Below, in pieces: positions 2,602 to 12,397 of a stretch of 64,000 bases of DNA. The notes under the pieces are model-generated. The model did no database searches and was not told the origin of the DNA. It saw only the letters and a program-made list of their open reading frames with translations. Position numbers and translations under genes: made by a program. The number at the start of each line of letters is the position of its first letter. The first letter of the stretch is position 1. This stretch comes from an uncultured virus (IMG/VR IMGVR_UViG_3300021092_000027) (lineage: Duplodnaviria > Heunggongvirae > Uroviricota > Caudoviricetes). The DNA is taken from IMG/VR virus record IMGVR_UViG_3300021092_000027; one strand, written 5' to 3'.

Positions 2602-2676
2602 GGACTCCATGCACGCCACTTGCTTTTTTACTAGAAGCAAGAAACTAGGCGGGAGAGAGTCCCATCCGCACCACCA
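2602..2676 (-). ncRNA. Structured cis-regulatory RNA resembling the cyanophage wcaG motif
   Basis: Minus strand GGTGCGGATGGGACTCTCTCCCGCC…CTTGCTT…AAGCAAGTGGCGTGCATG with nested stems; family call from memory of the consensus. Confidence 0.55.
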
Positions 2677-2698
2677 ATTCTTTTAGGAAATTGGAAAC

Positions 2699-2905
2699 CT
2701 ACTTAGAACTTACAAAGTTATTAATATTCTCGGCAAGTTGTTGAATATACTCAAAAGTAGGAAATGTTGGAAATTCTTTCAAGTTATTTGAGTTAATTTG
2801 TTTTTCATTCCACATCGTAACAGCAGCATATTCAGATTGATACTGACGATCTGCTAGTGCTTCTGCTTCCTGAAAAATGTTGAATCTAAGTTCGTAAGGT
2901 GTCAT
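2699..2905 (-). CDS. Conserved small T4-like phage protein (MTPYELRF…FPTF…INNFVS)
   Basis: 68 aa; strong AAGGAG SD after an A/C-rich leader. Confidence 0.8.
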   Translation of the reverse strand: MTPYELRFNIFQEAEALADRQYQSEYAAVTMWNEKQINSNNLKEFPTFPTFEYIQQLAENINNFVSSK

Positions 2906-3485: not shown

Positions 3486-3557
3486 TCGGGGCGACAGGGA
3501 TTGAACCTGTGACCTCTGGTTCCCAAAACCAGCATTCTACCGCTGAACTACGCCCCG
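3486..3557 (-). tRNA. tRNA-Pro(UGG)
   Basis: Cloverleaf CGGGGCG…CGCCCCG-A; anticodon loop TT-TGG-GA; TTCAA T-loop. Confidence 0.95.
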
Positions 3558-3645
3558 TGGCGGAAGTGGTAGGATTTGAACCCACGAACGCTTTCACGTT
3601 GCTTGTTTTCAAGACAAGTGCCTTAAACCACTCGGCCACACTTCC
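3558..3645 (-). tRNA. tRNA-Ser(UGA)
   Basis: GGAAGTG…CACTTCC-GCCA; long variable arm; anticodon loop CT-TGA-AA. Confidence 0.95.
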
Positions 3646-5558: not shown

Positions 5559-5630
5559 TGGGCGATACTGGATTCGAACCAGTGACCCTCTCCTTGTAAG
5601 GGAGACGCGCTACCGCTGTGCCAATCGCCC
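5559..5630 (-). tRNA. tRNA-Val(UAC)
   Basis: GGGCGAT…ATCGCCC-A; anticodon loop CT-TAC-AA. Confidence 0.95.
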
Positions 5631-5706
5631 TGGCGACTCAGGTTGGGGTCGAACCAACGACCGACTGCTTAGAAGGCAGTTGCTCTATCCACTGAGCTAC
5701 TGAGTC
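5631..5706 (-). tRNA. tRNA-Arg(UCU)
   Basis: GACTCAG…CTGAGTC-GCCA; anticodon loop CT-TCT-AA. Confidence 0.95.
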
Positions 5707-5917: not shown

Positions 5918-6111
5918 GCTTGTCCTGGCGGTTGTTGTTCCAGTACGACAACTGGACAAATTTTTGGGCTCTCTATCCATTCCCACCACTCCTCATAGAT
6001 GGCATATAGGTCTTCCGTTCTTCCTACTTGATTTAAATATTCCATTCTGTCACCCGACCACTGCACCAAGTCATCAACCAACTTTTGTATATTAGCTGGA
6101 CGACTTTCCAT
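5914..6111 (-). CDS. Small hypothetical protein
   Basis: 65 aa; AIYEEWWEWIE motif. Confidence 0.65.
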   Translation of the reverse strand: MESRPANIQKLVDDLVQWSGDRMEYLNQVGRTEDLYAIYEEWWEWIESPKICPVVVLEQQPPGQA

Positions 6112-6535
6112 AGTAGTCTTTCCTCATGTATCTACCGAGAATGTTTGAGTTGTAGAATGCAGGAGCACCGTTCAACTCTTCTATCAATACATTATTTAGG
6201 AACAGTTGTTTAGTTTCTTCGTAATTGCAAGAACCTTTTGTTTTATGTAGGCTTATGATCTGTCGTTTGAAGTGTTGCCTTCCGTACTTCTTGACATCAT
6301 CTTTGAGCTCTGGACAGGATCCGTAATATTTTTTCCAATCAGACTCTGACTTAACCTTTCTAGATTTTCCTCTTGGTGTGCGGTAACTCCAGAAATACTT
6401 TCGACCAATATATTTACGATCAGTTTCACTGCAAGTAATAAGATATACAAAACCAAAATAATCTTGAATATCATCTGAACCAAAAACTTTTCCGTTATAG
6501 GTCCAAGGGTTTTCATAGTCAATCAGGATATCCAT
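6092..6535 (-). CDS. GIY-YIG nuclease-family protein
   Basis: GFVYLIT…KYIGRK; WKKYYGS; YNSNI. Confidence 0.8.
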   Translation of the reverse strand: MDILIDYENPWTYNGKVFGSDDIQDYFGFVYLITCSETDRKYIGRKYFWSYRTPRGKSRKVKSESDWKKYYGSCPELKDDVKKYGRQHFKRQIISLHKTKGSCNYEETKQLFLNNVLIEELNGAPAFYNSNILGRYMRKDYYGKSSS

Positions 6536-6665
6536 CATCATCATCTTCACTAAAATAACCAGGATCTGCTTTATAGCTATCTACATCTGCATATACTTCT
6601 ACCTTCAACTCAGCAATTACATCTTCTAGTTCTTCTATCAATTGCTTCAGGCGTCTTTTTTCCAT
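6519..6665 (-). CDS. Small acidic-tail protein (…ELKVEVYADVDSY…DDDDGYPD)
   Basis: 48 aa ORF filling the gap in operon order. Confidence 0.7.
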   Translation of the reverse strand: MEKRRLKQLIEELEDVIAELKVEVYADVDSYKADPGYFSEDDDDGYPD

Positions 6666-6705: not shown

Positions 6706-6858
6706 TTAAAAGTTTTTAAAGTGTTTTTTACCTTTTCTCCTTACAACTCTTCGTATCTCTGGAGGTTCTTTCCTTATTGGAAATTTCCTTTGCTCTGTAA
6801 ATATGCCGTCATTAGTAATCATTCTAGTTAAAACTAATAACTGAATCAACAGTTTCAT
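6706..6858 (-). CDS. Small basic peptide (MKLLIQLLVL…)
   Basis: ATGA-coupled to the upstream ORF. Confidence 0.6.
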   Translation of the reverse strand: MKLLIQLLVLTRMITNDGIFTEQRKFPIRKEPPEIRRVVRRKGKKHFKNF

Positions 6859-6941
6859 CCCAAAGTTGCAATATAGAGTTGTGCTTCTTGAAGTTTTCTT
6901 TGCTTGATGATTTGCTTGCGAATTACATCCAACCAATTCAT
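6855..6941 (-). CDS. 28-aa peptide (MNWLDVIRKQIIKQRKLQEAQLYIATLG)
   Basis: GGAGG SD; ATGA overlaps at both ends. Confidence 0.6.
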   Translation of the reverse strand: MNWLDVIRKQIIKQRKLQEAQLYIATLG

Positions 6942-7099
6942 TTTACTTCCTCCCAGTTCCAATTGTTACATGGACGATAGGAAATACCACGATACTTATT
7001 TGGTGGATGAGATGGAGCATGTGTTTCCGAATACCACTTACGGTACTCTAGTTTTGGAGTGTGAGTATTATACTTAACACCACGATAGGTTGCTGTCAT
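6938..7099 (-). CDS. DUF4278-like peptide 2
   Basis: Two YRG motifs (TYRGVKY, KYRGISY); ATGA-coupled. Confidence 0.75.
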   Translation of the reverse strand: MTATYRGVKYNTHTPKLEYRKWYSETHAPSHPPNKYRGISYRPCNNWNWEEVK

Positions 7100-7236
7100 C
7101 CCTTGGTCCCCTCTTTTACAAATTTGACCCCACGGTAGGTCTCATTATATTGTTGAGGTTGTTGTTGCATTTGCTGTTGGTAGGCGATACGCTTTTCGGT
7201 ATCGTATTCAACGCCACGGTATACTACTTTTGACAT
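7096..7236 (-). CDS. DUF4278-like peptide 1
   Basis: VYRGVEY…TYRGVKF; AGGAG SD directly after the riboswitch-like RNA. Confidence 0.8.
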   Translation of the reverse strand: MSKVVYRGVEYDTEKRIAYQQQMQQQPQQYNETYRGVKFVKEGTKG

Positions 7237-7265
7237 TAGGTTTCTCCTTAATTTTGAGGCTAAAG

Positions 7266-7480
7266 AGCGTTCCTTCAGTCGGCTTTTGCGTCTACTTTGC
7301 ACGTTTTTGGAGAGATCTGTCTGATCTCCCAGATTAAATCATTCTTTACTTGAATGGGAATGTCCTGTTTGTGAATTCTCCCAGCAATTAATTGTGCTTG
7401 TAAGCAAGTTAGAATGAGTGCTTCCATAGATGAACGATCCGTTCCGAGTCGGCTTACTTCCGTCCCATAGGGATGAACGT
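7266..7480 (-). ncRNA. Tandem glutamine-riboswitch (glnA-family)-like RNA
   Basis: Two CGTTC…GAACG P1 pairs; GGAAGTAA and TGAAG junction motifs; upstream of DUF4278 genes. Confidence 0.75.
7275..7427 (-). CDS. 50-aa ORF embedded in the second aptamer (MEALILTCLQAQLI…CKVDAKAD)
   Basis: Uninterrupted frame from ATG 7427 to TGA 7275. Confidence 0.55.
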   Translation of the reverse strand: MEALILTCLQAQLIAGRIHKQDIPIQVKNDLIWEIRQISPKTCKVDAKAD

Positions 7481-7482
7481 AG

Positions 7483-7517
7483 AGTATATATTAGCATAGT
7501 TTCGTATAAAACTATAC
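7483..7517 (-). promoter_or_regulatory. NtcA-type box over the -35 region plus a -10 element
   Basis: GTA-N8-TAC at 7504-7517; TATACT at 7488-7483. Confidence 0.6.
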
Positions 7518-7539
7518 AAATTTAATAATGATTTAAGAA

Positions 7540-7983
7540 TCAATCTTTCCATGGGTCTGGAAGTGAAGTTCCCAGTCCCTTCTCATCGCTCCCAGAGCCC
7601 ATGCGTCCGTCAGTTGCTTCGGACCCTCGTTCAACAACTGGATTTGAAATGCTGATAGACCAGCCTTCCTCGCCAAATAGTCCCTCCTCCACGATCTCTG
7701 CTTTGGGTCGATTTCGCTCATCTTCTTCCTCCCACTGCTTTTTAATTTCCTCCGCTTGACGATCAACGTCTTGCATCGTAGCTTCAATCTTAGCATCAAA
7801 GTACCACTTCTCCACATAGGAAAAGAGGTACTCAAGAATTATATTCAGAGGTGGTTTCTGTTTTCGAATCCACCTCTTAATTTTCTGTATGTCAGTTTCT
7901 TTTTCTTTGTCTAAGACAATCTCAAAGTTCAAACCCACTGAAGGAATTTGAGGTGATGTCTTGTTTGATTCCTCCGATGACAT
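7540..7983 (-). CDS. Hypothetical protein (start may be the TTG near 7931)
   Basis: Long ORF directly downstream of nrdB. Confidence 0.6.
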   Translation of the reverse strand: MSSEESNKTSPQIPSVGLNFEIVLDKEKETDIQKIKRWIRKQKPPLNIILEYLFSYVEKWYFDAKIEATMQDVDRQAEEIKKQWEEEDERNRPKAEIVEEGLFGEEGWSISISNPVVERGSEATDGRMGSGSDEKGLGTSLPDPWKD

Positions 7984-9094
7984 AACTTTCGATCTCCGTT
8001 TCTTGTGGTGCGTTTTGCTGACCCTTAGAGTTCAACCAATACTGTGTCCAAGGAAGAGGATTGTTATTAGCAGAGACATGATAGATAGGATCAAATCCAA
8101 TCGCTTTCATTCGACGGTTAGCAACCCACTCAACATACTGAGTAAGAAGCTTGTCATTAAGACCGATCATGGAACCATCTTTGAACAGATATTCTGCCCA
8201 GGATCTTTCTTCATCCACAGCATTTTTGAACATCTGAATCACATTCTCTCTTTCCTCCGCAGCGATTTCCAGCATGTCTGGATCGTCGCCTTGATGCCAG
8301 TTTTTGATGATGTTTTGAGTAAGGACAAGATGCTGGTTTTCGTCTCTTGCGATGAGAGAGATAATTTTAGCGGATCCCTCCATAAGTTTGAGCTCACCAA
8401 ACGCAAACGAGCAAGCAAAGGAGACATAGAACCTAATTCCTTCAAGAATGTTGACGTTGACAACTGCTCTGTAGAGTTTCCTCTTGAGGTCTTTGAGACT
8501 TTCTTTTGCTGTGGGGACATTTTCCTGTGCGAAGATCCAATCGTTGCTTGTACCATAATTTTGGGCAGCGTTGATGAGATCATTATAGGAGGAAGTCACC
8601 GTAGCTGCACGGTTTAAAATCTTTTCATCATCAAGAATTGCATCAAAGACCTCTGCAGGATCTGAGTAGACATTCTTGATGATGTAGGTGTAAGAACGGG
8701 AATGGATTTGCTCCATAAATTCCCACACTCCCATGGCACCCTCCAGTTCAGGAAGAGAACAGTAAGGTGAGAATGCCATGCCAGGTCCACGACCCTGAAC
8801 TGAATCTAACATTACCTGATACTTCAGGTTACTGGTGAAGATATGCTTTTGTTCCTTAGTAAGAGTCTGATAGTCTGCTCTATCTTTTTGAAGGGAGACC
8901 TCTTCAGGTCTCCAGAAATAACCCAGTTGTTGTGTTGTTAGTTTGTCGAAGATTGGATATTTGTAGTTATCGTATCTTTGTAATCCGAGAGGAGCACCAA
9001 AGAACATAGGTTGTTTTTTGATGTTGACTTGCTTGGTATTAAATACCGTCATGCCTTGAATATTTGGTTTTGGTAGAGCAGTTAAAAATTCCAT
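7922..9094 (-). CDS. nrdB: Ribonucleotide reductase class Ia beta subunit
   Basis: FWRPEEV, DSVQGR, EQIHSRSY, EGIRFY, RDENQH, APQETEIESY. Confidence 0.97.
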   Translation of the reverse strand: MEFLTALPKPNIQGMTVFNTKQVNIKKQPMFFGAPLGLQRYDNYKYPIFDKLTTQQLGYFWRPEEVSLQKDRADYQTLTKEQKHIFTSNLKYQVMLDSVQGRGPGMAFSPYCSLPELEGAMGVWEFMEQIHSRSYTYIIKNVYSDPAEVFDAILDDEKILNRAATVTSSYNDLINAAQNYGTSNDWIFAQENVPTAKESLKDLKRKLYRAVVNVNILEGIRFYVSFACSFAFGELKLMEGSAKIISLIARDENQHLVLTQNIIKNWHQGDDPDMLEIAAEERENVIQMFKNAVDEERSWAEYLFKDGSMIGLNDKLLTQYVEWVANRRMKAIGFDPIYHVSANNNPLPWTQYWLNSKGQQNAPQETEIESYVIGGIKQDITSNSFSGFEL

Positions 9095-9101
9095 TTGGTT
9101 C

Positions 9102-11405
9102 TCAGATCTTACAGGACTCACAATCATCATCAGCGGTTTCAATCTCAGCGATAAGTGCTTCTAACTGAGATCTCTTGGAATCTATGTCTTCATCAGCATC
9201 TTTTTTAGCGTCGTAGGTGTTCTGATAGTAGCTGGTCTTCCAGCCGTACTTATATGTATTCAAAAGGTCTTGTGCCATTACCGAAGTAGGAACTTCATTA
9301 TCTGGATAATTCTCTGGATTATAGGACCAGTTTCCAGAAATCGCTTGATCGAAGAACTTCTGCATAATAGCGACAATATTAATATACCCAGTATTGCTAG
9401 GCATATCCCAAAGAAGCGTGTAATTGTTCTTAAGTGTTTGGTACTGAGGAACAATCTGCTTAAGCGGACCCTTCTTCGACTTCTTAATGGACAGGTAGTC
9501 TCTAGGAGGTTCAATTCCGTTTGTTGCATTTGACACCACGGAACTGCTTTCCGATGGCATCTGTGCGGACAGTGTGCTGTGTCGCAGTCCGTGTTCCATG
9601 ATAGATGCCCTAAGAGATTCCCAGTCATAGAAATAAGCAGGTGCTACTAATTCGTCAACGTCCTTCTTGTATGTATCGATAGGAAGAATACCATCGGCAT
9701 ACTTCGTGCGATTAAATGCTTCACATGCACCTTTCTCTTTAGCAATCTGATTAGATGCTTTGAGAAGATTATATTGGAATGCTTCAGTGAGTTTATGTAC
9801 CTCAGTGCGAGCTACAATATCATCATACTTAATTTTGTGCTTGGCTAGGTAATGTGCCAGACCGATGTATCCAACACCCAAGGAGCGCCTTGCAAGGGTG
9901 CTACGGCGTGCTGCTGCAACAGGATACTCCTGATAGTCAATCAACTCTTCCAATCCTCTTACAGTAAGATCACAGAGTTCTTCCATCTCACTGAGGTGAT
10001 TGATCTTTCCAACGTTGATGGCAGACAAGATACAAAGGGCGATCTCACCATCAGCATCATCGATATGATTGATAGGATCTGTAGGAAGAGTAATCTCCTG
10101 ACACAGGTTGGACATGTTCACCTTATCCTTAAAGGAAGAGTGAGAGTTGCAGTGGTCAATATTCATAATGTAGATGCGACCAGTCTCTGCTCTCTCCTTT
10201 AAAAGATCCAGAAAGAGTTCTTGAGCTCTGACAGTCTTTCTTGGAAGAGACTGATCTCGTTCATAAGACTCATATAAGTCGTCAAATCGATCAGTGCCAA
10301 AAGCATCATACAGACCAGGAACGTCGTGTGGAGAGAAGAGGGAAATCTCTCTATCTTGGATGAATCTCGCATAGAAAAGTTTGGAGATTTGAATGCTGTA
10401 ATCTAGCTTACGGACCCTATTATCTTCGGTTCCTTTATTGTTCTTGAGTACAATAATATCTTCTATTTCTTTGTGCCAGATTGGGAAGTGGACTGTTGCG
10501 CTTCCACCTCGGATGCCATTTTGAGTGCAGCATCGGACAGTTGCTTCAAACTTTTTGAGAAACGGTACAACGCCAGTGTGCTGGACTTCACCACCTCTAA
10601 TTTTGCTGTTGATACCACGGATGCGACCTGCGTTGATACCGATGCCCGCCCTTTGTGCAACATATCTGCCAATAGCCATATCGCTACTAAAGATACTATC
10701 GAGGGTGTCATCAACATCAACAAGAACACAGCTAGCGAATTGTCTAAGTGGCGTTCGCACTCCTGCCATGATGGGGGTTGGAATGTTGATTTTGTGCTTG
10801 CTGATTGCGCTGTAGTATCGACGGACATAATCGATCCTGGTTTCCTTAGGATAATTTTGGAACAGGGTAAGAGCGATCATCATGTACATAAACTGAGGAG
10901 TTTCGTAGTGGACTCCCGAGCTTCTATCCTGGACAAGATATTTATCCACTACTTGTCGCAATCCAGCATATGTAAACAGAAAGTCACGATCGTGATCGAT
11001 GAATCTATTCAGAACATCCCATTCTTCAGCAGAATATTTTGCAAGAATAGTCTTGTCATATACTCCTCTTTCAACACAAAGTTGTACCTGATCTACAAGA
11101 CCAGGAAATTCTTCAGGGTGTCCAAAGACAGACTTCCTCAAACCAAAAAGAAGTAGCCTTGAAGCTACGTATTGGTAGTTTGGGTTGTCTAGAGTAATCA
11201 AATCCGAAGCAGATCGAATCAAGATCTCTTGGATTTGACTTGTCTTGATGCCATCAAAAAATTGCAGACCGCTATTGATTTCTACTTGAGATGGGGAGAC
11301 TCCTGCAAGACCTTCACATGCCAGGTCCACCATCTTATGAACCTTGTCAAGATTAATGGGCTCAGTTCTACCATCTCTCTTAACAACTTTGATTCCGTTA
11401 CTCAT
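9102..11405 (-). CDS. nrdA: Ribonucleotide reductase class Ia alpha subunit
   Basis: ATP cone VVKRDG, QFASCVL, SNLCQEI, KTSYY, C-terminal CESCKI. Confidence 0.98.
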   Translation of the reverse strand: MSNGIKVVKRDGRTEPINLDKVHKMVDLACEGLAGVSPSQVEINSGLQFFDGIKTSQIQEILIRSASDLITLDNPNYQYVASRLLLFGLRKSVFGHPEEFPGLVDQVQLCVERGVYDKTILAKYSAEEWDVLNRFIDHDRDFLFTYAGLRQVVDKYLVQDRSSGVHYETPQFMYMMIALTLFQNYPKETRIDYVRRYYSAISKHKINIPTPIMAGVRTPLRQFASCVLVDVDDTLDSIFSSDMAIGRYVAQRAGIGINAGRIRGINSKIRGGEVQHTGVVPFLKKFEATVRCCTQNGIRGGSATVHFPIWHKEIEDIIVLKNNKGTEDNRVRKLDYSIQISKLFYARFIQDREISLFSPHDVPGLYDAFGTDRFDDLYESYERDQSLPRKTVRAQELFLDLLKERAETGRIYIMNIDHCNSHSSFKDKVNMSNLCQEITLPTDPINHIDDADGEIALCILSAINVGKINHLSEMEELCDLTVRGLEELIDYQEYPVAAARRSTLARRSLGVGYIGLAHYLAKHKIKYDDIVARTEVHKLTEAFQYNLLKASNQIAKEKGACEAFNRTKYADGILPIDTYKKDVDELVAPAYFYDWESLRASIMEHGLRHSTLSAQMPSESSSVVSNATNGIEPPRDYLSIKKSKKGPLKQIVPQYQTLKNNYTLLWDMPSNTGYINIVAIMQKFFDQAISGNWSYNPENYPDNEVPTSVMAQDLLNTYKYGWKTSYYQNTYDAKKDADEDIDSKRSQLEALIAEIETADDDCESCKI

Positions 11406-12397
11406 ACTTTCCAATCTGTAAGTTTTAACTTTGCTTCTAGCCCTTGATAGATGTTAGATTCTATCACATCTTTGGCATTAATGCCAGCTTTAACCATGTC
11501 ATTAATATCCTTTTCGTGAATACCCTTTGGCCAAATAACCACTGGATATCCAGAATCTATTGCTTTCTCAATTCGATCTGTAATTTGTTTGTTTCTCGGT
11601 TCATTATCAAAGATGTATACAAGATTATAGTTGAATCCACTGAGATCTACATCAGCACCACACATGGCGATGCTGTTTTCTAAGAATAGAGAATCGAATG
11701 GTCCTTCAACAACGTATACGGTTTCATCATTCTTTACTCGATCAAGACCAAAAACCTTTGGGGCATCTTCATCTAGCATGATGGTGATATAACGCATTCT
11801 TGCGTCTGGTTCTAGAGATCTTCCCTGGTATCCGAATAGATTTCCTTCCTTGTCTTTGAGTGGAATGATGATGCGTTCATCGTCTTTGTTGGTATCCGAG
11901 AATGTTTCCTTTTGTTTATTCGTCCACTCTTTGAATTTTGGACAGAAATAAAACTCCTTTAATTTTTCTTCTGGAATACCTCTACCAAGCAAATATGCCC
12001 GAGCTGGGTGAAAGTTATTTAGCTCAGATATTGGTGTAAGGTCTATTACTTTTTTTGATTTGAAGACAGGCGTATCAAAGGTCGGAAGGGTTGGTTTGGG
12101 AATAGGAGTTCCCTTACCAGTATGACCTTCACTATAGTGTTCCATCAGATACTCATCATAAAGATGAGGCACCTGCTCCTTTATGAAGTTAGAAAAGGAT
12201 CTACCTACGCCACAGTTATGGCACTTGTAAAAATAATCAGCCCTCTTCTTAACAAGATAACCCCTAGCTTTGTTTCGGTGCTTTTGAGAGTCACCGCAGT
12301 AGGGGCATCGGAAGTTATATACTCCAGGTTTTTTCTTGGAGAACTTATCTAAAAAGGAGGACGAAAGACTTATGTACTTTTCGTCAATAAAACTCAT
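11402..12397 (-). CDS. gp61: DNA primase (T4 gp61-like)
   Basis: Zn finger CPYCGDS…CHNC; TOPRIM EGPFDS, DNEPRN, KDIND. Confidence 0.95.
   Translation of the reverse strand: MSFIDEKYISLSSSFLDKFSKKKPGVYNFRCPYCGDSQKHRNKARGYLVKKRADYFYKCHNCGVGRSFSNFIKEQVPHLYDEYLMEHYSEGHTGKGTPIPKPTLPTFDTPVFKSKKVIDLTPISELNNFHPARAYLLGRGIPEEKLKEFYFCPKFKEWTNKQKETFSDTNKDDERIIIPLKDKEGNLFGYQGRSLEPDARMRYITIMLDEDAPKVFGLDRVKNDETVYVVEGPFDSLFLENSIAMCGADVDLSGFNYNLVYIFDNEPRNKQITDRIEKAIDSGYPVVIWPKGIHEKDINDMVKAGINAKDVIESNIYQGLEAKLKLTDWKV

What the first reader, a model, noticed from the sequence alone, without database searches (positions are those of the whole stretch)
7266..7437. A 50-codon ORF nested inside a riboswitch aptamer
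Seen: in the second unit the P2 stem (TCTAT/GTAGA) encloses about 135 nt instead of a short loop. An uninterrupted ORF (7427-7275, MEALILTCLQAQLI…CKVDAKAD) starts with its ATG in the 5' strand of P2 and stops at the TGA of the conserved TGAAG junction. The first unit has GGAAGTAA but no TGAAG, and the second the reverse, so an alternative nested fold pairing the outer P1 strands is also possible. Inference: translation of the inner ORF and aptamer folding would be mutually exclusive, a ribosome-coupled switch not explained by the standard riboswitch model.
Basis: partly seen in the sequence, partly recalled or inferred. Interest (0 to 1): 0.8.

Follow-up and report, generated by a model that had tools for sequence, protein, structure and literature searches.

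The report
Gene nested inside phage glutamine riboswitch
In this cyanobacterial virus a small, conserved protein gene sits inside a hairpin of a two-part glutamine-sensing RNA switch, so the same letters serve as sensor and as codons, and reading the gene and folding the sensor must compete.

Summary
On the minus strand a glutamine-I aptamer (7481-7436; 34.0 bits, Rfam cut-off 35) is followed by a second core. Its hairpin stem (7430-7426 / 7295-7291) encloses 130 nt, filled by an ORF (7427-7275) that starts in the stem and stops at the UGA of CUGAAGG.

It is conserved. All 89 insert-bearing loci among 121 related cyanophage loci carry such an ORF. Median dN/dS is 0.14, against 0.80 and 2.3 in shifted frames. 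The stem pairs in 87 of 89, against 29% for shuffled partners. A search from the window's protein recovered the layout in 79 of 80 loci. The protein is a two-cysteine helical hairpin (PHROG 504, function unknown).

The two "units" are also interlocked. In other phages unit 1's hairpin hosts a related gene too.

The regulatory effect is untested. I infer that folding buries the ORF's start codon, which has no Shine-Dalgarno sequence, and that translation unfolds the sensor upstream of DUF4278 (IF17-like) genes. I found no paper describing this. Earlier agents of this scan reported the same layout on other phage DNA.

The parts
7504..7517 (-). NtcA-like box GTA-N8-TAC (GTATAGTTTTATAC) upstream of or overlapping the promoter
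   Evidence: Sequence. GTAN8TAC lies within 90 nt upstream of the first CGTTCA in 111 of 140 related loci, against 3 in a control stretch. NtcA binding itself is inferred.
7483..7510 (-). Sigma-70-like promoter match (TTTATA-16-TATACT). The transcript would start at or just before the first aptamer strand.
   Evidence: Consensus scan: 9 of 12 matches; 7 sites found in the region against 2.9 expected. The start site is inferred.
7436..7481 (-). Unit 1: the 5' half of the composite glutamine sensor. It holds CGUUC 7479-7475, P2 hairpin 7473-7463, CGGAAGUA 7462-7455, strand x AGCCGACU 7454-7447 and GAACG 7444-7440.
   Evidence: RF01739 34.0 bits, cut-off 35, E = 1.1e-5. P2 covaries in 20 doublets.
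7447..7454 (-). Strand x of the inter-unit helix. It pairs with 7284-7277.
   Evidence: Pair x8-y1 is U-A 77, A-U 15, G-C 2 in 143 loci. In alignment A3 this pair forms in 20 of 20 rows, with three pair types.
7431..7436 (-). CGUUCA of unit 2. It can pair either with 7272-7268 (side-by-side fold) or with 7444-7440 (inner hairpin of the nested fold).
   Evidence: Sequence. All four P1 strands are invariant, so covariation cannot choose.
7426..7430 (-). 5' strand of the stem that encloses the gene (UCUAU). It holds the A and U of the start codon.
   Evidence: All five basal pairs are present in 87 of 89 loci. Compensatory changes occur at pairs 3, 4 and 5.
7275..7427 (-). Nested gene: 50 codons plus UGA. 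It encodes a two-cysteine helical-hairpin protein of the PHROG 504 family.
   Evidence: ORF; dN/dS 0.06-0.40 against 20 relatives; phrog_504 E = 0.013 for the window protein, 3.5e-12 and 3.1e-17 for relatives; AlphaFold2 pLDDT 91.4; C8 and C43 invariant.
7291..7295 (-). 3' strand of the enclosing stem (GUAGA). It lies inside codons 44-46 of the nested gene.
7285..7290 (-). Junction CGCAAA of unit 2, read as part of codons D-A-K.
   Evidence: Sequence. Conserved in every locus, although the search pattern required it there.
7277..7284 (-). Strand y of the inter-unit helix (AGCCGACU). Its last U is the first base of the stop codon.
   Evidence: In phage S-SRM01 the pair x1-y8 is C-G instead of A-U, which removes the UGA, and the ORF runs 5 codons further.
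7268..7276 (-). GAAGGAACG: the 3' half of the E-loop plus the P1 3' strand.
   Evidence: Sequence. Matches the RF01739 consensus GAAGGAACG shown.
7244..7267 (-). Expression platform. CUCUUUAG (7267-7260) pairs with UUAAGGAG (7251-7244), which holds the Shine-Dalgarno sequence of the downstream gene.
   Evidence: Fold: 8 pairs, -8.6 kcal/mol, z = -1.66, and 17 of 200 shuffles fold as well, so the support is modest. Its role is inferred by analogy with gifB (PMC6212724, passages).
7096..7236 (-). DUF4278 (IF17-like) gene 1, MSKVVYRGVEYDT...
   Evidence: Pfam PF14105 E = 6.2e-4, below the cut-off; phrog_5049 E = 1.3e-12. A M..YRG gene follows the sensor in 116 of 121 loci.
6938..7099 (-). DUF4278 gene 2
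   Evidence: PF14105 29.8 bits, above the cut-off of 25.3.
6855..6941 (-). Third small gene (MNWLDVIRKQI...). Its start overlaps the stop of gene 2 (ATGA).
   Evidence: phrog_545 E = 1.3e-4. A relative (MNTLNLIR.QI...) directly follows the sensor in the second subfamily.

Best explanation
The leader of a small cyanophage operon encoding DUF4278 (IF17-like) proteins is one composite glutamine sensor built from two interlocked glutamine-I cores. One of its peripheral hairpins closes around a complete, functional small-protein gene.

Shown here:
- The gene is real and under purifying selection.
- The stem around it and the helix shared by the two cores are kept by compensatory changes.
- The gene fills the loop exactly. 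Its start codon lies in the 5' stem strand with no Shine-Dalgarno sequence in front. Its last six codons and its stop codon are sensor core.

Inferred:
- When the sensor is folded, most stably with glutamine bound, the start codon and the bases a 30S subunit needs upstream of it are base-paired. The nested gene is then off.
- By analogy with gifB, the folded sensor at the same time releases the Shine-Dalgarno sequence of the DUF4278 gene from the CUCUUUAG pairing.
- When the sensor is open, ribosomes read the nested gene. In doing so they melt the stem, the junction, the shared helix and, at the stop codon, the P1 3' strand. The sensor therefore has to refold after every ribosome passes.
- The result would be a ribosome-coupled switch that gives opposite outputs for the nested gene and the downstream genes.
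- The nested protein's own function is unknown. It is a helical hairpin with two invariant cysteines.
For: Layout:
- sequence; unit 1 is RF01739 at 34.0 bits; ORF.

Conservation:
- A pattern scan of viral contigs gave 121 analysable loci. Of these, 89 carry an insert of 103-183 nt and 32 have a short hairpin.
- All 89 inserts hold an ORF of 49-66 aa that starts 3-5 nt into the stem.
- The stop is the UGA of CUGAAGG in 85 loci, a UAA or UAG directly before the core in 3, and lies 5 codons later in 1.

Coding:
- Median dN/dS is 0.14 over 253 pairs, and every pair is below 1. Shifted frames give 0.80 and 2.34.
- The profile search found 319 clusters at E <= 1e-3.

From the protein side:
- 79 of 80 loci found from the window's protein have the nested layout. 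The 80th has an in-frame TAG 8 codons early.
- 39 of 44 loci of a second subfamily have it by the strict rule.

Stem:
- 87 of 89 loci keep all 5 basal pairs, against 29% (sd 8) for shuffled partners.
- Pair 4 is A-U 46, C-G 15, U-A 15.
- Some lineages extend the stem to 11-20 pairs between the start and the end of the ORF.

Interlock:
-.

No Shine-Dalgarno sequence:
- 1 of 89 nested ORFs has one, against 83 of 84 downstream genes.

Same platform:
- The same downstream platform and DUF4278 gene follow the sensor with or without the nested gene.

Glutamine-ON logic of the family:
- PMC6212724 (passages).

RNA-library contigs:
- Contigs of relatives bridge unit 1, the ORF, the 3' core and the start of the next gene: X2 record 9 covers 7241-7465, X3 record 12 covers 7230-7420, X4 record 18 covers 7270-7492.
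- The tool warns that DNA can be present in such libraries.
Against: - No ligand binding, translation or reporter data exist for any member. The direction of control is inferred only.
- The stem is short (5 pairs, one of them U-G) around a 130-nt loop. Nearest-neighbour folding does not favour the proposed folds: nested -48.1, side-by-side -52.3, unconstrained -54.2 kcal/mol.
- The whole region's fold is not unusual (z = -1.9).
- The downstream platform is the same in loci without the nested gene, so the sensor works without it. The gene could therefore be a passenger.
- A ribosome terminating at the UGA would cover the P1 3' strand and part of CUCUUUAG. That could switch the downstream gene on rather than give opposite outputs.
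- U before GAAGG is also kept in loci with a short hairpin. The stop codon there is thus a by-product of the RNA, and S-SRM01 shows that RNA pairing wins over the stop position.
- Most loci were gathered with a pattern that required the sensor core, which inflates core conservation. The protein-first searches reduce this bias but do not remove it.
Confidence: 0.6

Rival explanations
1. Passive hosting. The hairpin loop is a spot where the sensor tolerates any insert. A small phage gene has been packed there for economy and co-transcription, and the overlap with the sensor has no regulatory use.
For: - Loci with and without the gene share the same downstream platform and gene.
- 32 of 121 second units and many first units have plain short hairpins.
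- One locus carries a premature stop in the ORF while the sensor is intact.
- Phage genomes are compact; genes 2 and 3 of this operon overlap by ATGA.
- ORFs in peripheral loops of group I introns are tolerated in the same way (recalled).
Against: - In 89 of 89 cases the gene fills the loop exactly. There is no spacer and no Shine-Dalgarno sequence of its own (1 of 89 against 83 of 84 for the neighbour). Its initiation signal therefore lies inside sensor helices.
- The arrangement has persisted while the protein diverged to about 15-20% identity.
- It recurs in the other hairpin with a different stop position.
- Some lineages bury the start codon in 11-20 pairs.
Confidence: 0.3
2. Translational coupling. 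The nested gene acts as an upstream ORF. Ribosomes that finish at the UGA sit on the P1 3' strand and the anti-Shine-Dalgarno stretch, and so open or re-initiate on the DUF4278 gene. Both genes would then go up together, and unit 1 alone would sense glutamine.
For: - The stop lies 8 nt before CUCUUUAG.
- In the window the next AUG starts 38 nt after the stop. In 74 of the 84 scored insert-bearing loci the gap is 38-43 nt, and it is 36-44 nt in 78 of the 84.
- The downstream gene has a strong AAGGAG sequence.
- The stop is kept as UAA where UGAAGG has become UAAAGG (10 of the 39 loci resolved).
Against: - The same spacing and platform occur in the 32 loci without an ORF.
- In S-SRM01 the stop has moved 5 codons downstream without any other change.
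- In 3 loci the ORF stops before the core.
- No data on re-initiation exist.
Confidence: 0.25
3. The second unit is a decayed aptamer remnant flanking an ordinary gene. Only unit 1 is a working riboswitch.
For: - Rfam does not report unit 2.
- Unit 2 lacks AAGUA and unit 1 lacks GAAG.
Against: - The stem across the gene covaries.
- Strand y of unit 2 covaries with strand x of unit 1.
- The missing halves complement each other exactly in the composite fold.
- In the short-hairpin relative S-CREM1, Rfam scores unit 2 higher than unit 1: 33.5 against 20.4 bits.
Confidence: 0.05
4. The insert is a structured non-coding extension of the hairpin and the ORF is accidental.
For: The insert is predicted to form internal helices. 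Some lineages pair its two ends over 11-20 bp.
Against: - dN/dS is 0.14 in frame, against 0.80 and 2.34 out of frame.
- The frame is open in 89 of 89 loci.
- The two cysteines are invariant while the nucleotides diverge.
- The AlphaFold2 model is confident.
Confidence: 0.03

Closest known systems
Glutamine-I riboswitch (glnA RNA, Rfam RF01739), e.g. the Synechocystis gifB / IF17 leader (Klahn 2018, PMC6212724, passages read)
   Same: - The same conserved core: CGUUCA, CG(G/C)AAGUA, GAAGGAACG.
- The same downstream gene family (DUF4278).
- A sequence directly after P1 can pair with the ribosome-binding site.
- A likely NtcA box sits at the promoter.
   Different: - Here the core is split over two interlocked units.
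- One hairpin holds a 50-codon gene instead of a 3-7 nt loop.
- The host is a virus.
- Unit 1 scores 34.0 bits, just under the cut-off of 35, and unit 2 is invisible to the Rfam model.
Tandem (doublet) glutamine riboswitches, described as pseudo-cooperative independent units (Sherlock 2022, PMC9481103, passages: 157 doublets and 4 triplets; Weinberg 2010, PMC2864571, passages)
   Same: Two glutamine cores sit head to tail, 2-5 nt apart, before one gene.
   Different: - Covariation here supports a helix shared between the two cores, and speaks against a local third hairpin in each.
- Unit 1 has no expression platform of its own.
- Neither paper mentions a gene inside an aptamer in the passages I read.
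Salmonella mgtA Mg2+ leader with the short ORF mgtL (recalled, no paper read here); also riboswitch-linked translated uORFs in Mycobacterium tuberculosis (10.1101/2022.06.01.494293, search listing and start of abstract only)
   Same: An ORF inside a metabolite-sensing leader, where translation and RNA folding compete.
   Different: - Those ORFs lie in the expression platform or leader, not inside an aptamer hairpin.
- They act through the act of translation, and their peptides are not conserved proteins.
- Here the product is a conserved folded protein family (dN/dS 0.14; 319 clusters).
Protein genes in peripheral loops of group I introns, e.g. phage T4 td with I-TevI (recalled)
   Same: A complete gene is looped out of a peripheral stem of a structured RNA. 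The stem closes around it, and folding and translation exclude each other.
   Different: - The host RNA is a ribozyme, not a ligand sensor.
- The genes are large mobile endonucleases with their own ribosome-binding sites.
- Here the gene shares its start and its last codons with the functional core.
Tandem glycine riboswitch (PMC5066625 and PMC5666159, search listing and start of abstract only)
   Same: Two homologous ligand-binding domains act as one unit with a single expression platform.
   Different: The glycine domains touch by tertiary contacts. Here a Watson-Crick helix is shared and the P1 strands may be swapped. The glycine riboswitch holds no nested gene.

Membership tests
Glutamine-I riboswitch (RF01739) | Score at or above Rfam's gathering cut-off (35 bits) | tested here: not met
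   Unit 1 scores 34.0 bits, E = 1.1e-5. Unit 2 gets no hit because of the 130-nt insert. In the insert-free relative S-CREM1 the units score 20.4 and 33.5 bits. The shortfall follows from each unit lacking one half of the E-loop and third helix, not from a lack of relatedness.
Glutamine-I riboswitch (RF01739) | Conserved core nucleotides CGUUCA / CGGAAGUA / GAAGGAACG | tested here: met
   All are present, but divided: CGUUCA twice, CGGAAGUA only in unit 1, UGAAGGAACG only in unit 2. The composite holds one full set plus a second partial set.
Glutamine-I riboswitch (RF01739) | Three helices (P1, P2, P3) supported by covariation | tested here: met
   - Both P2 hairpins covary.
- The third helix exists only between the units, and it covaries.
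- P1 never varies, so it is uninformative.
Glutamine-I riboswitch (RF01739) | Selective binding of L-glutamine | not testable with these tools
   Needs in-line probing, calorimetry or a crystal structure of the composite RNA.
Glutamine-I riboswitch (RF01739) | Sits in the 5' leader of a DUF4278 / nitrogen-related gene | tested here: met
   PF14105 on the two following genes. A M..YRG gene follows in 116 of 121 loci.
Independent tandem riboswitches | Each aptamer is structurally complete on its own | tested here: not met
   The local pairs 34-42 and 89-96 form in 7 of 20 rows each, while the inter-unit pair 42-89 forms in 20 of 20 rows with three pair types. In 43 loci of the second subfamily no local hairpin is possible, yet AGUCG/CGACU pair perfectly between the units.
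Regulatory leader peptide (attenuation or mgtL type) | A short ORF whose translation, not its product, matters; the peptide is poorly conserved apart from the sensing codons | tested here: not met
   - Strong purifying selection acts on the whole protein.
- The two cysteines are invariant.
- The predicted fold is confident.
- No run of regulatory codons was seen.
PHROG 504 (phage protein family of unknown function) | Significant match to the family profile | tested here: inconclusive
   The window protein matches at E = 0.013, 16.2 bits. Relatives in the same position match at 3.5e-12, 3.1e-17 and 5e-21. My own profile links them all.

The most novel reading that the evidence does not exclude
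One glutamine-binding RNA scaffold works as a two-way translational switch, with ribosomes as its reset.
- With glutamine bound, the interlocked double sensor locks shut. It buries the start codons of the genes nested in its hairpins, which have no Shine-Dalgarno sequence, and frees the ribosome-binding site of the IF17-like genes.
- Without glutamine, ribosomes enter the nested genes and keep the sensor unfolded.
- The virus would thereby make two opposed sets of tiny proteins according to the host's nitrogen state.
- The nested two-cysteine proteins would be new modulators of host nitrogen metabolism, for example antagonists or partners of the IF17-like glutamine-synthetase inhibitors.
Probability: 0.3. 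Interest if true: 0.9.

Novelty: new variant of a known kind. Interest (0 to 1): 0.8.

Why it matters
Riboswitch aptamers are treated as non-coding, and tandem glutamine aptamers as independent units. Here three things differ:
- A conserved protein gene lies inside an aptamer hairpin and shares its start codon, six codons and its stop codon with the sensor.
- The two aptamers share a helix.
- Standard Rfam scans miss the arrangement, although it is present in hundreds of cyanophage contigs.

A 2017 survey found only two glutamine aptamers in cyanophage genomes (PMC5473149, passage).

The arrangement offers a natural system in which ligand sensing and translation compete on the same bases. It adds a family of unknown small proteins to the viral toolkit for host nitrogen metabolism, next to IF17-like genes and an NtcA-type box. 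It also shows that models of RNA families should allow gene-sized inserts in peripheral loops.

Tried and rejected
- **Rfam, default thresholds.** The scan did not report the element. Only the permissive scan found unit 1.
- **Protein function.** Nothing informative came from Pfam, from the PDB fold search (best E = 2.2) or from the ESM Atlas (only unnamed clusters at 0.82-0.88).
- **Thermodynamic folding.** It cannot choose between the nested and the side-by-side fold. The P1 strands never vary, so covariation cannot choose either.
- **Public RNA runs.**
  - Only small shares of the sampled words were found (0.05-0.06).
  - What was laid are assembled contigs of relatives, 80-99% alike. They cannot show a transcript start, strand or translation.
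  - The bins 7498-7524 had no cover in all four runs, and 7471-7497 had none or next to none. This fits a start near 7481 but proves nothing.
  - Summed depth over 7093-7470 was far above the flanks, but the tool warns against ranking by depth.
- **The window's own genome.** Its assembly is not held. The nearest record, G001, is a 42%-complete fragment with no copy.
- **Cellular genomes.** The scan gave 6 hits.
  - Four of the five with the aptamer context lie on contigs of at most 17 kb from metagenome or single-cell assemblies. The fifth lies on a 189,106-base contig of the same length as an IMG/VR viral record.
  - All five look like phage DNA.
  - The sixth (L131) lacks the aptamer context and is probably chance.
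- **Literature.**
  - Five searches and passages of PMC2864571, PMC6212724, PMC9481103, PMC9964418, PMC9602691, PMC12379486, PMC5473149 and PMC8250186 gave no mention of a gene inside the aptamer or of a shared helix.
  - Ames & Breaker 2011 (PMC3127080) is not held, and Ren 2015 was not read. Either could bear on the tandem fold.
  - Weinberg's glnA alignment (supplement 5) has about 160 gap columns in the P2 loop, so some row has a long insert. The rows I saw had short loops, and my motif searches for the phage forms found none.
- **A search that failed.** A locus search with alignment A2 failed because it had no conserved stretch, so I used a single protein instead.
- **Readings considered and dropped.** These were an accidental ORF, a leader peptide, and a decayed second aptamer (see the rival explanations).
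- **A frame error.** In some searches I scanned gene 3 one base out of frame (window 6855-6942). correct this.
Full report
**Context.** The window is from a T4-like cyanophage. Ribonucleotide reductase genes lie just upstream (ORFs 9102-11414 and 7922-9142). There are four tRNA genes and a wcaG RNA. The nearest annotated relatives are Kyanoviridae phages of Synechococcus and Prochlorococcus. Everything below is on the minus strand.

- Unit 1 (7481-7436) matches the glutamine-I riboswitch model RF01739 at 34.0 bits, one bit under Rfam's cut-off. The default scan therefore did not list it.
- Three bases later comes a second CGUUCA (7436-7431), then UCUAU (7430-7426).
- 130 nt further on come the complementary GUAGA (7295-7291) and the core CGCAAAAGCCGACUGAAGGAACG (7290-7268).
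- The ORF 7427-7275 (50 aa) begins with its AU in the 5' stem strand. It ends with the UGA of CUGAAGG.
- Unit 1 has AAGUA but no GAAG.

**The ORF is a real gene.**
With five annotated phages and the window this gave 126 matches. Five were cut by a contig end.
- Of the 121 left, 32 have a plain short hairpin. The other 89 have an insert of 103-183 nt. One locus, L102, was first mis-sorted and belongs to the short class.
- All 89 inserts are filled by an ORF of 49-66 aa that starts 3-5 nt into the stem.
- The ORF ends at the UGA of the core in 85 loci. It ends at a UAA or UAG directly before the core in 3. It ends five codons later in 1.
- With the first 4 and last 8 codons trimmed, Nei-Gojobori dN/dS over the 253 usable pairs (of 300 with at least 60% identity and equal length) has a median of 0.14. 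Every pair is below 1.
- The same stretches read one or two bases out of frame give 0.80 and 2.34. The window's ORF against 20 relatives gives 0.06-0.40.
- GenBank annotators had already called these ORFs hypothetical proteins, for example PHM1_180.
- The protein belongs to PHROG 504, of unknown function: E = 0.013 for the window and down to 5e-21 for relatives. It has no Pfam family.
- An alignment of 45 diverse members, cut before the sensor-encoded tail, has only two invariant columns, both cysteines: C8 and C43.
- AlphaFold2 gives a confident two-helix hairpin (pLDDT 91.4). It has no significant PDB match.
- A profile search of 1.84 billion representatives found 319 clusters at E <= 1e-3.

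**The layout is not an artefact of searching with the RNA motif.**
- Starting from the window's protein, 138 viral loci encode a relative. Of the 80 kept, 79 show CGTTCA just before the ATG and the stop inside ...UGAAGGAACG.
- The 80th (L232) has the same flanks but an in-frame TAG eight codons early.
- I then started from a distant member ending in WDAND (P0148). Of its 44 loci, 39 are nested by the same strict rule, in a variant core GACGCAAACGACUGAAGGAACG.
- Of the five not resolved, L172 and L173 do lie between the two core halves with the start deeper in the loop (read by eye). L176 is cut. L174 and L175 were not read.
- In 10 of the 39 the core reads UAAAGG, so a stop is kept.

**The hairpin really closes around the gene.**
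- In 87 of the 89 loci all five basal pairs can form. Among 27 distinct strand combinations 93% pair, against 29% (sd 8, maximum 63%) when partners are shuffled.
- Changes are compensatory:
  - pair 3 is U-A 47, C-G 38;
  - pair 4 is A-U 46, C-G 15, U-A 15, U-G 12;
  - pair 5 is U-A 53, A-U 23.
- In some lineages the stem runs on for 11-20 pairs, so the first codons pair with the last ones.

**The two units are interlocked.**
- The eight bases after AAGUA in unit 1 form strand x (7454-7447). The eight bases before GAAGG in unit 2 form strand y (7284-7277). They can pair antiparallel.
- In 143 loci where both cores could be extracted:
  - pair x8-y1 is U-A 77, A-U 15, G-C 2;
  - pair x5-y4 is G-C 125, A-U 11, G-U 7;
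  - pair x1-y8 is A-U 139, C-G 1, G-U 1.
- In the 43 loci of the WDAND subfamily, x and y are AGUCG and CGACU. These are perfectly complementary and unable to form hairpins of their own.
- On a MAFFT alignment of 20 insert-free doublets, the inter-unit pair (columns 42-89) forms in 20 of 20 rows with three pair types. The local pairs that independent aptamers would need (34-42 and 89-96) form in only 7 of 20 rows each.
- The single C-G case at x1-y8 is phage S-SRM01. That change turns UGA into GGA and lets the ORF run on five codons. RNA pairing therefore takes precedence over where the gene stops.
  - an outer P1 between 7479-7475 and 7272-7268;
  - the E-loop made from AAGUA of unit 1 and GAA of unit 2;
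  - the shared helix;
  - an inner hairpin, GAACG 7444-7440 with CGUUC 7436-7432;
  - the gene-bearing stem.
- A kissing arrangement of two side-by-side units is the alternative. The four P1 strands never vary, and energy models differ by only a few kcal/mol. I cannot tell the two folds apart.

**The phenomenon is wider than this finding.**
- In 28 loci the hairpin of unit 1 also holds an ORF of 60-73 aa. It starts just after CGUUCAUCC. It stops at the UAA of AAGUAAG or just before the 3' stem strand. P-HM1 has genes in both hairpins.
- These proteins (PHROG 6471 and others) align with the unit-2 proteins. They share the hydrophobic N-terminus and both cysteines.
- The exact unit-2 core is almost confined to phage DNA. 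The collection of cellular genomes gave 6 hits:
  - four on contigs of at most 17 kb from metagenome or single-cell assemblies;
  - one on a 189,106-base contig of the same length as an IMG/VR viral record;
  - one probable chance match.

**What surrounds it.**
- The nested gene has no Shine-Dalgarno sequence in the usual place (1 of 89). The gene that follows the sensor has one in 83 of 84.
- That following gene is a DUF4278 (IF17-like) gene in 116 of 121 loci. It sits 36-44 nt after the stop in 110 of the 116 scored loci, whether or not the nested gene is present.
- In the window, CUCUUUAG directly after P1 (7267-7260) pairs with UUAAGGAG (7251-7244): -8.6 kcal/mol, a modest z of -1.7. This resembles the arrangement proposed for gifB, where glutamine binding switches translation on (PMC6212724, passages).
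- A GTA-N8-TAC box lies upstream (7517-7504). Such a box is present in 111 of 140 loci against 3 controls.
- Contigs from RNA libraries of two or more studies, from relatives 80-99% alike, bridge unit 1, the ORF, the 3' core and the start of the next gene. DNA carry-over cannot be excluded.

**How it most likely works.**
- Shown:
  - a conserved gene occupies a sensor hairpin;
  - the hairpin and a shared helix are maintained;
  - the gene's start signal and its last six codons plus stop are sensor bases.
- It follows physically that a ribosome on the gene and the folded sensor exclude each other.
- Inferred (confidence about 0.6 for the whole statement):
  - the glutamine-locked fold hides the nested start codon while exposing the ribosome-binding site of the IF17-like gene;
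  - the open state lets ribosomes in, and they keep the sensor unfolded.
- Rivals are passive hosting (0.3), coupling through the terminating ribosome (0.25), a decayed second unit (0.05) and a non-coding insert (0.03). The first two are not excluded by anything I could compute.

**Novelty.**
- Tandem glutamine aptamers and their link to DUF4278 genes are known (PMC2864571, PMC9481103, PMC6212724, passages).
- I found no description of a gene inside the aptamer or of the shared helix. This rests on five full-text searches and the passages read.
- Ames & Breaker 2011 is not held, and the crystal-structure paper was not read.
- After I had reached these conclusions, I looked up this scan's earlier notes. 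Other agents had reported the same layout and the interlock on other phage genomes. That is agreement among the scan's own agents, not independent evidence.

Noticed in passing
window 7504-7517 (-): A perfect GTA-N8-TAC (NtcA-type) box sits at the promoter of the riboswitch operon. The same motif lies within 90 nt upstream in 111 of 140 related loci, against 3 in control stretches.
   Followed up: partly
L006 212-415 (P-HM1, PHM1_179); also L128, L130, L132 and 28 loci: The first aptamer's hairpin can also hold a gene (60-73 aa; PHROG 6471 and others). It stops at the UAA of the conserved AAGUAAG or just before the stem. P-HM1 has genes in both hairpins.
   Followed up: partly
L002 (S-SRM01) 475-642: The pair between the first base of strand x and the U of the stop codon has switched from A-U to C-G. 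This destroys the UGA, so the nested ORF is 5 codons longer (GRNAL tail).
   Followed up: yes
L232 about 270-450: One close relative has an in-frame TAG eight codons before the normal stop of the nested gene, while the sensor flanks are intact. It could be a truncated or dying copy, or a sequencing error.
   Followed up: no
window 7294 / 7422, run X1 (table 5): Two RNA-library contigs join 7294 to 7422 and skip 127 nt. This may be a relative without the nested gene. The shorter side is only 27 letters and likeness was set to 80, so it may come from another phage.
   Followed up: no
proteins P0139, P0145, P0064, P0091: Some family members end in ...ETQKPTEGTG, which is the sensor core read in another frame that has no stop there. 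In these the gene appears to run through the 3' core and beyond. Their DNA was not fetched.
   Followed up: no
window 6855-6941 (-): A third small gene (MNWLDVIRKQI..., phrog_545) overlaps the stop of DUF4278 gene 2 by ATGA. In the WDAND subfamily a relative of it, not a YRG gene, directly follows the sensor.
   Followed up: partly
window 2605-2702 (-): wcaG RNA, 95.9 bits, a cis-regulatory RNA known from cyanophages.
   Followed up: no
window 3486-3645 and 5559-5706 (-): Two pairs of adjacent tRNA genes.
   Followed up: no
window 6092-6550 (-): A 152-aa ORF holds ...FGFVYLITC...RKYIGRKYF..., which looks like a GIY-YIG homing-endonuclease motif. That reading is recalled and was not scanned.
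   Followed up: no
window 7540-7983 (-): A 147-aa gene sits between nrdB and the riboswitch operon: phrog_6464, unknown function, E = 1.1e-36.
   Followed up: no
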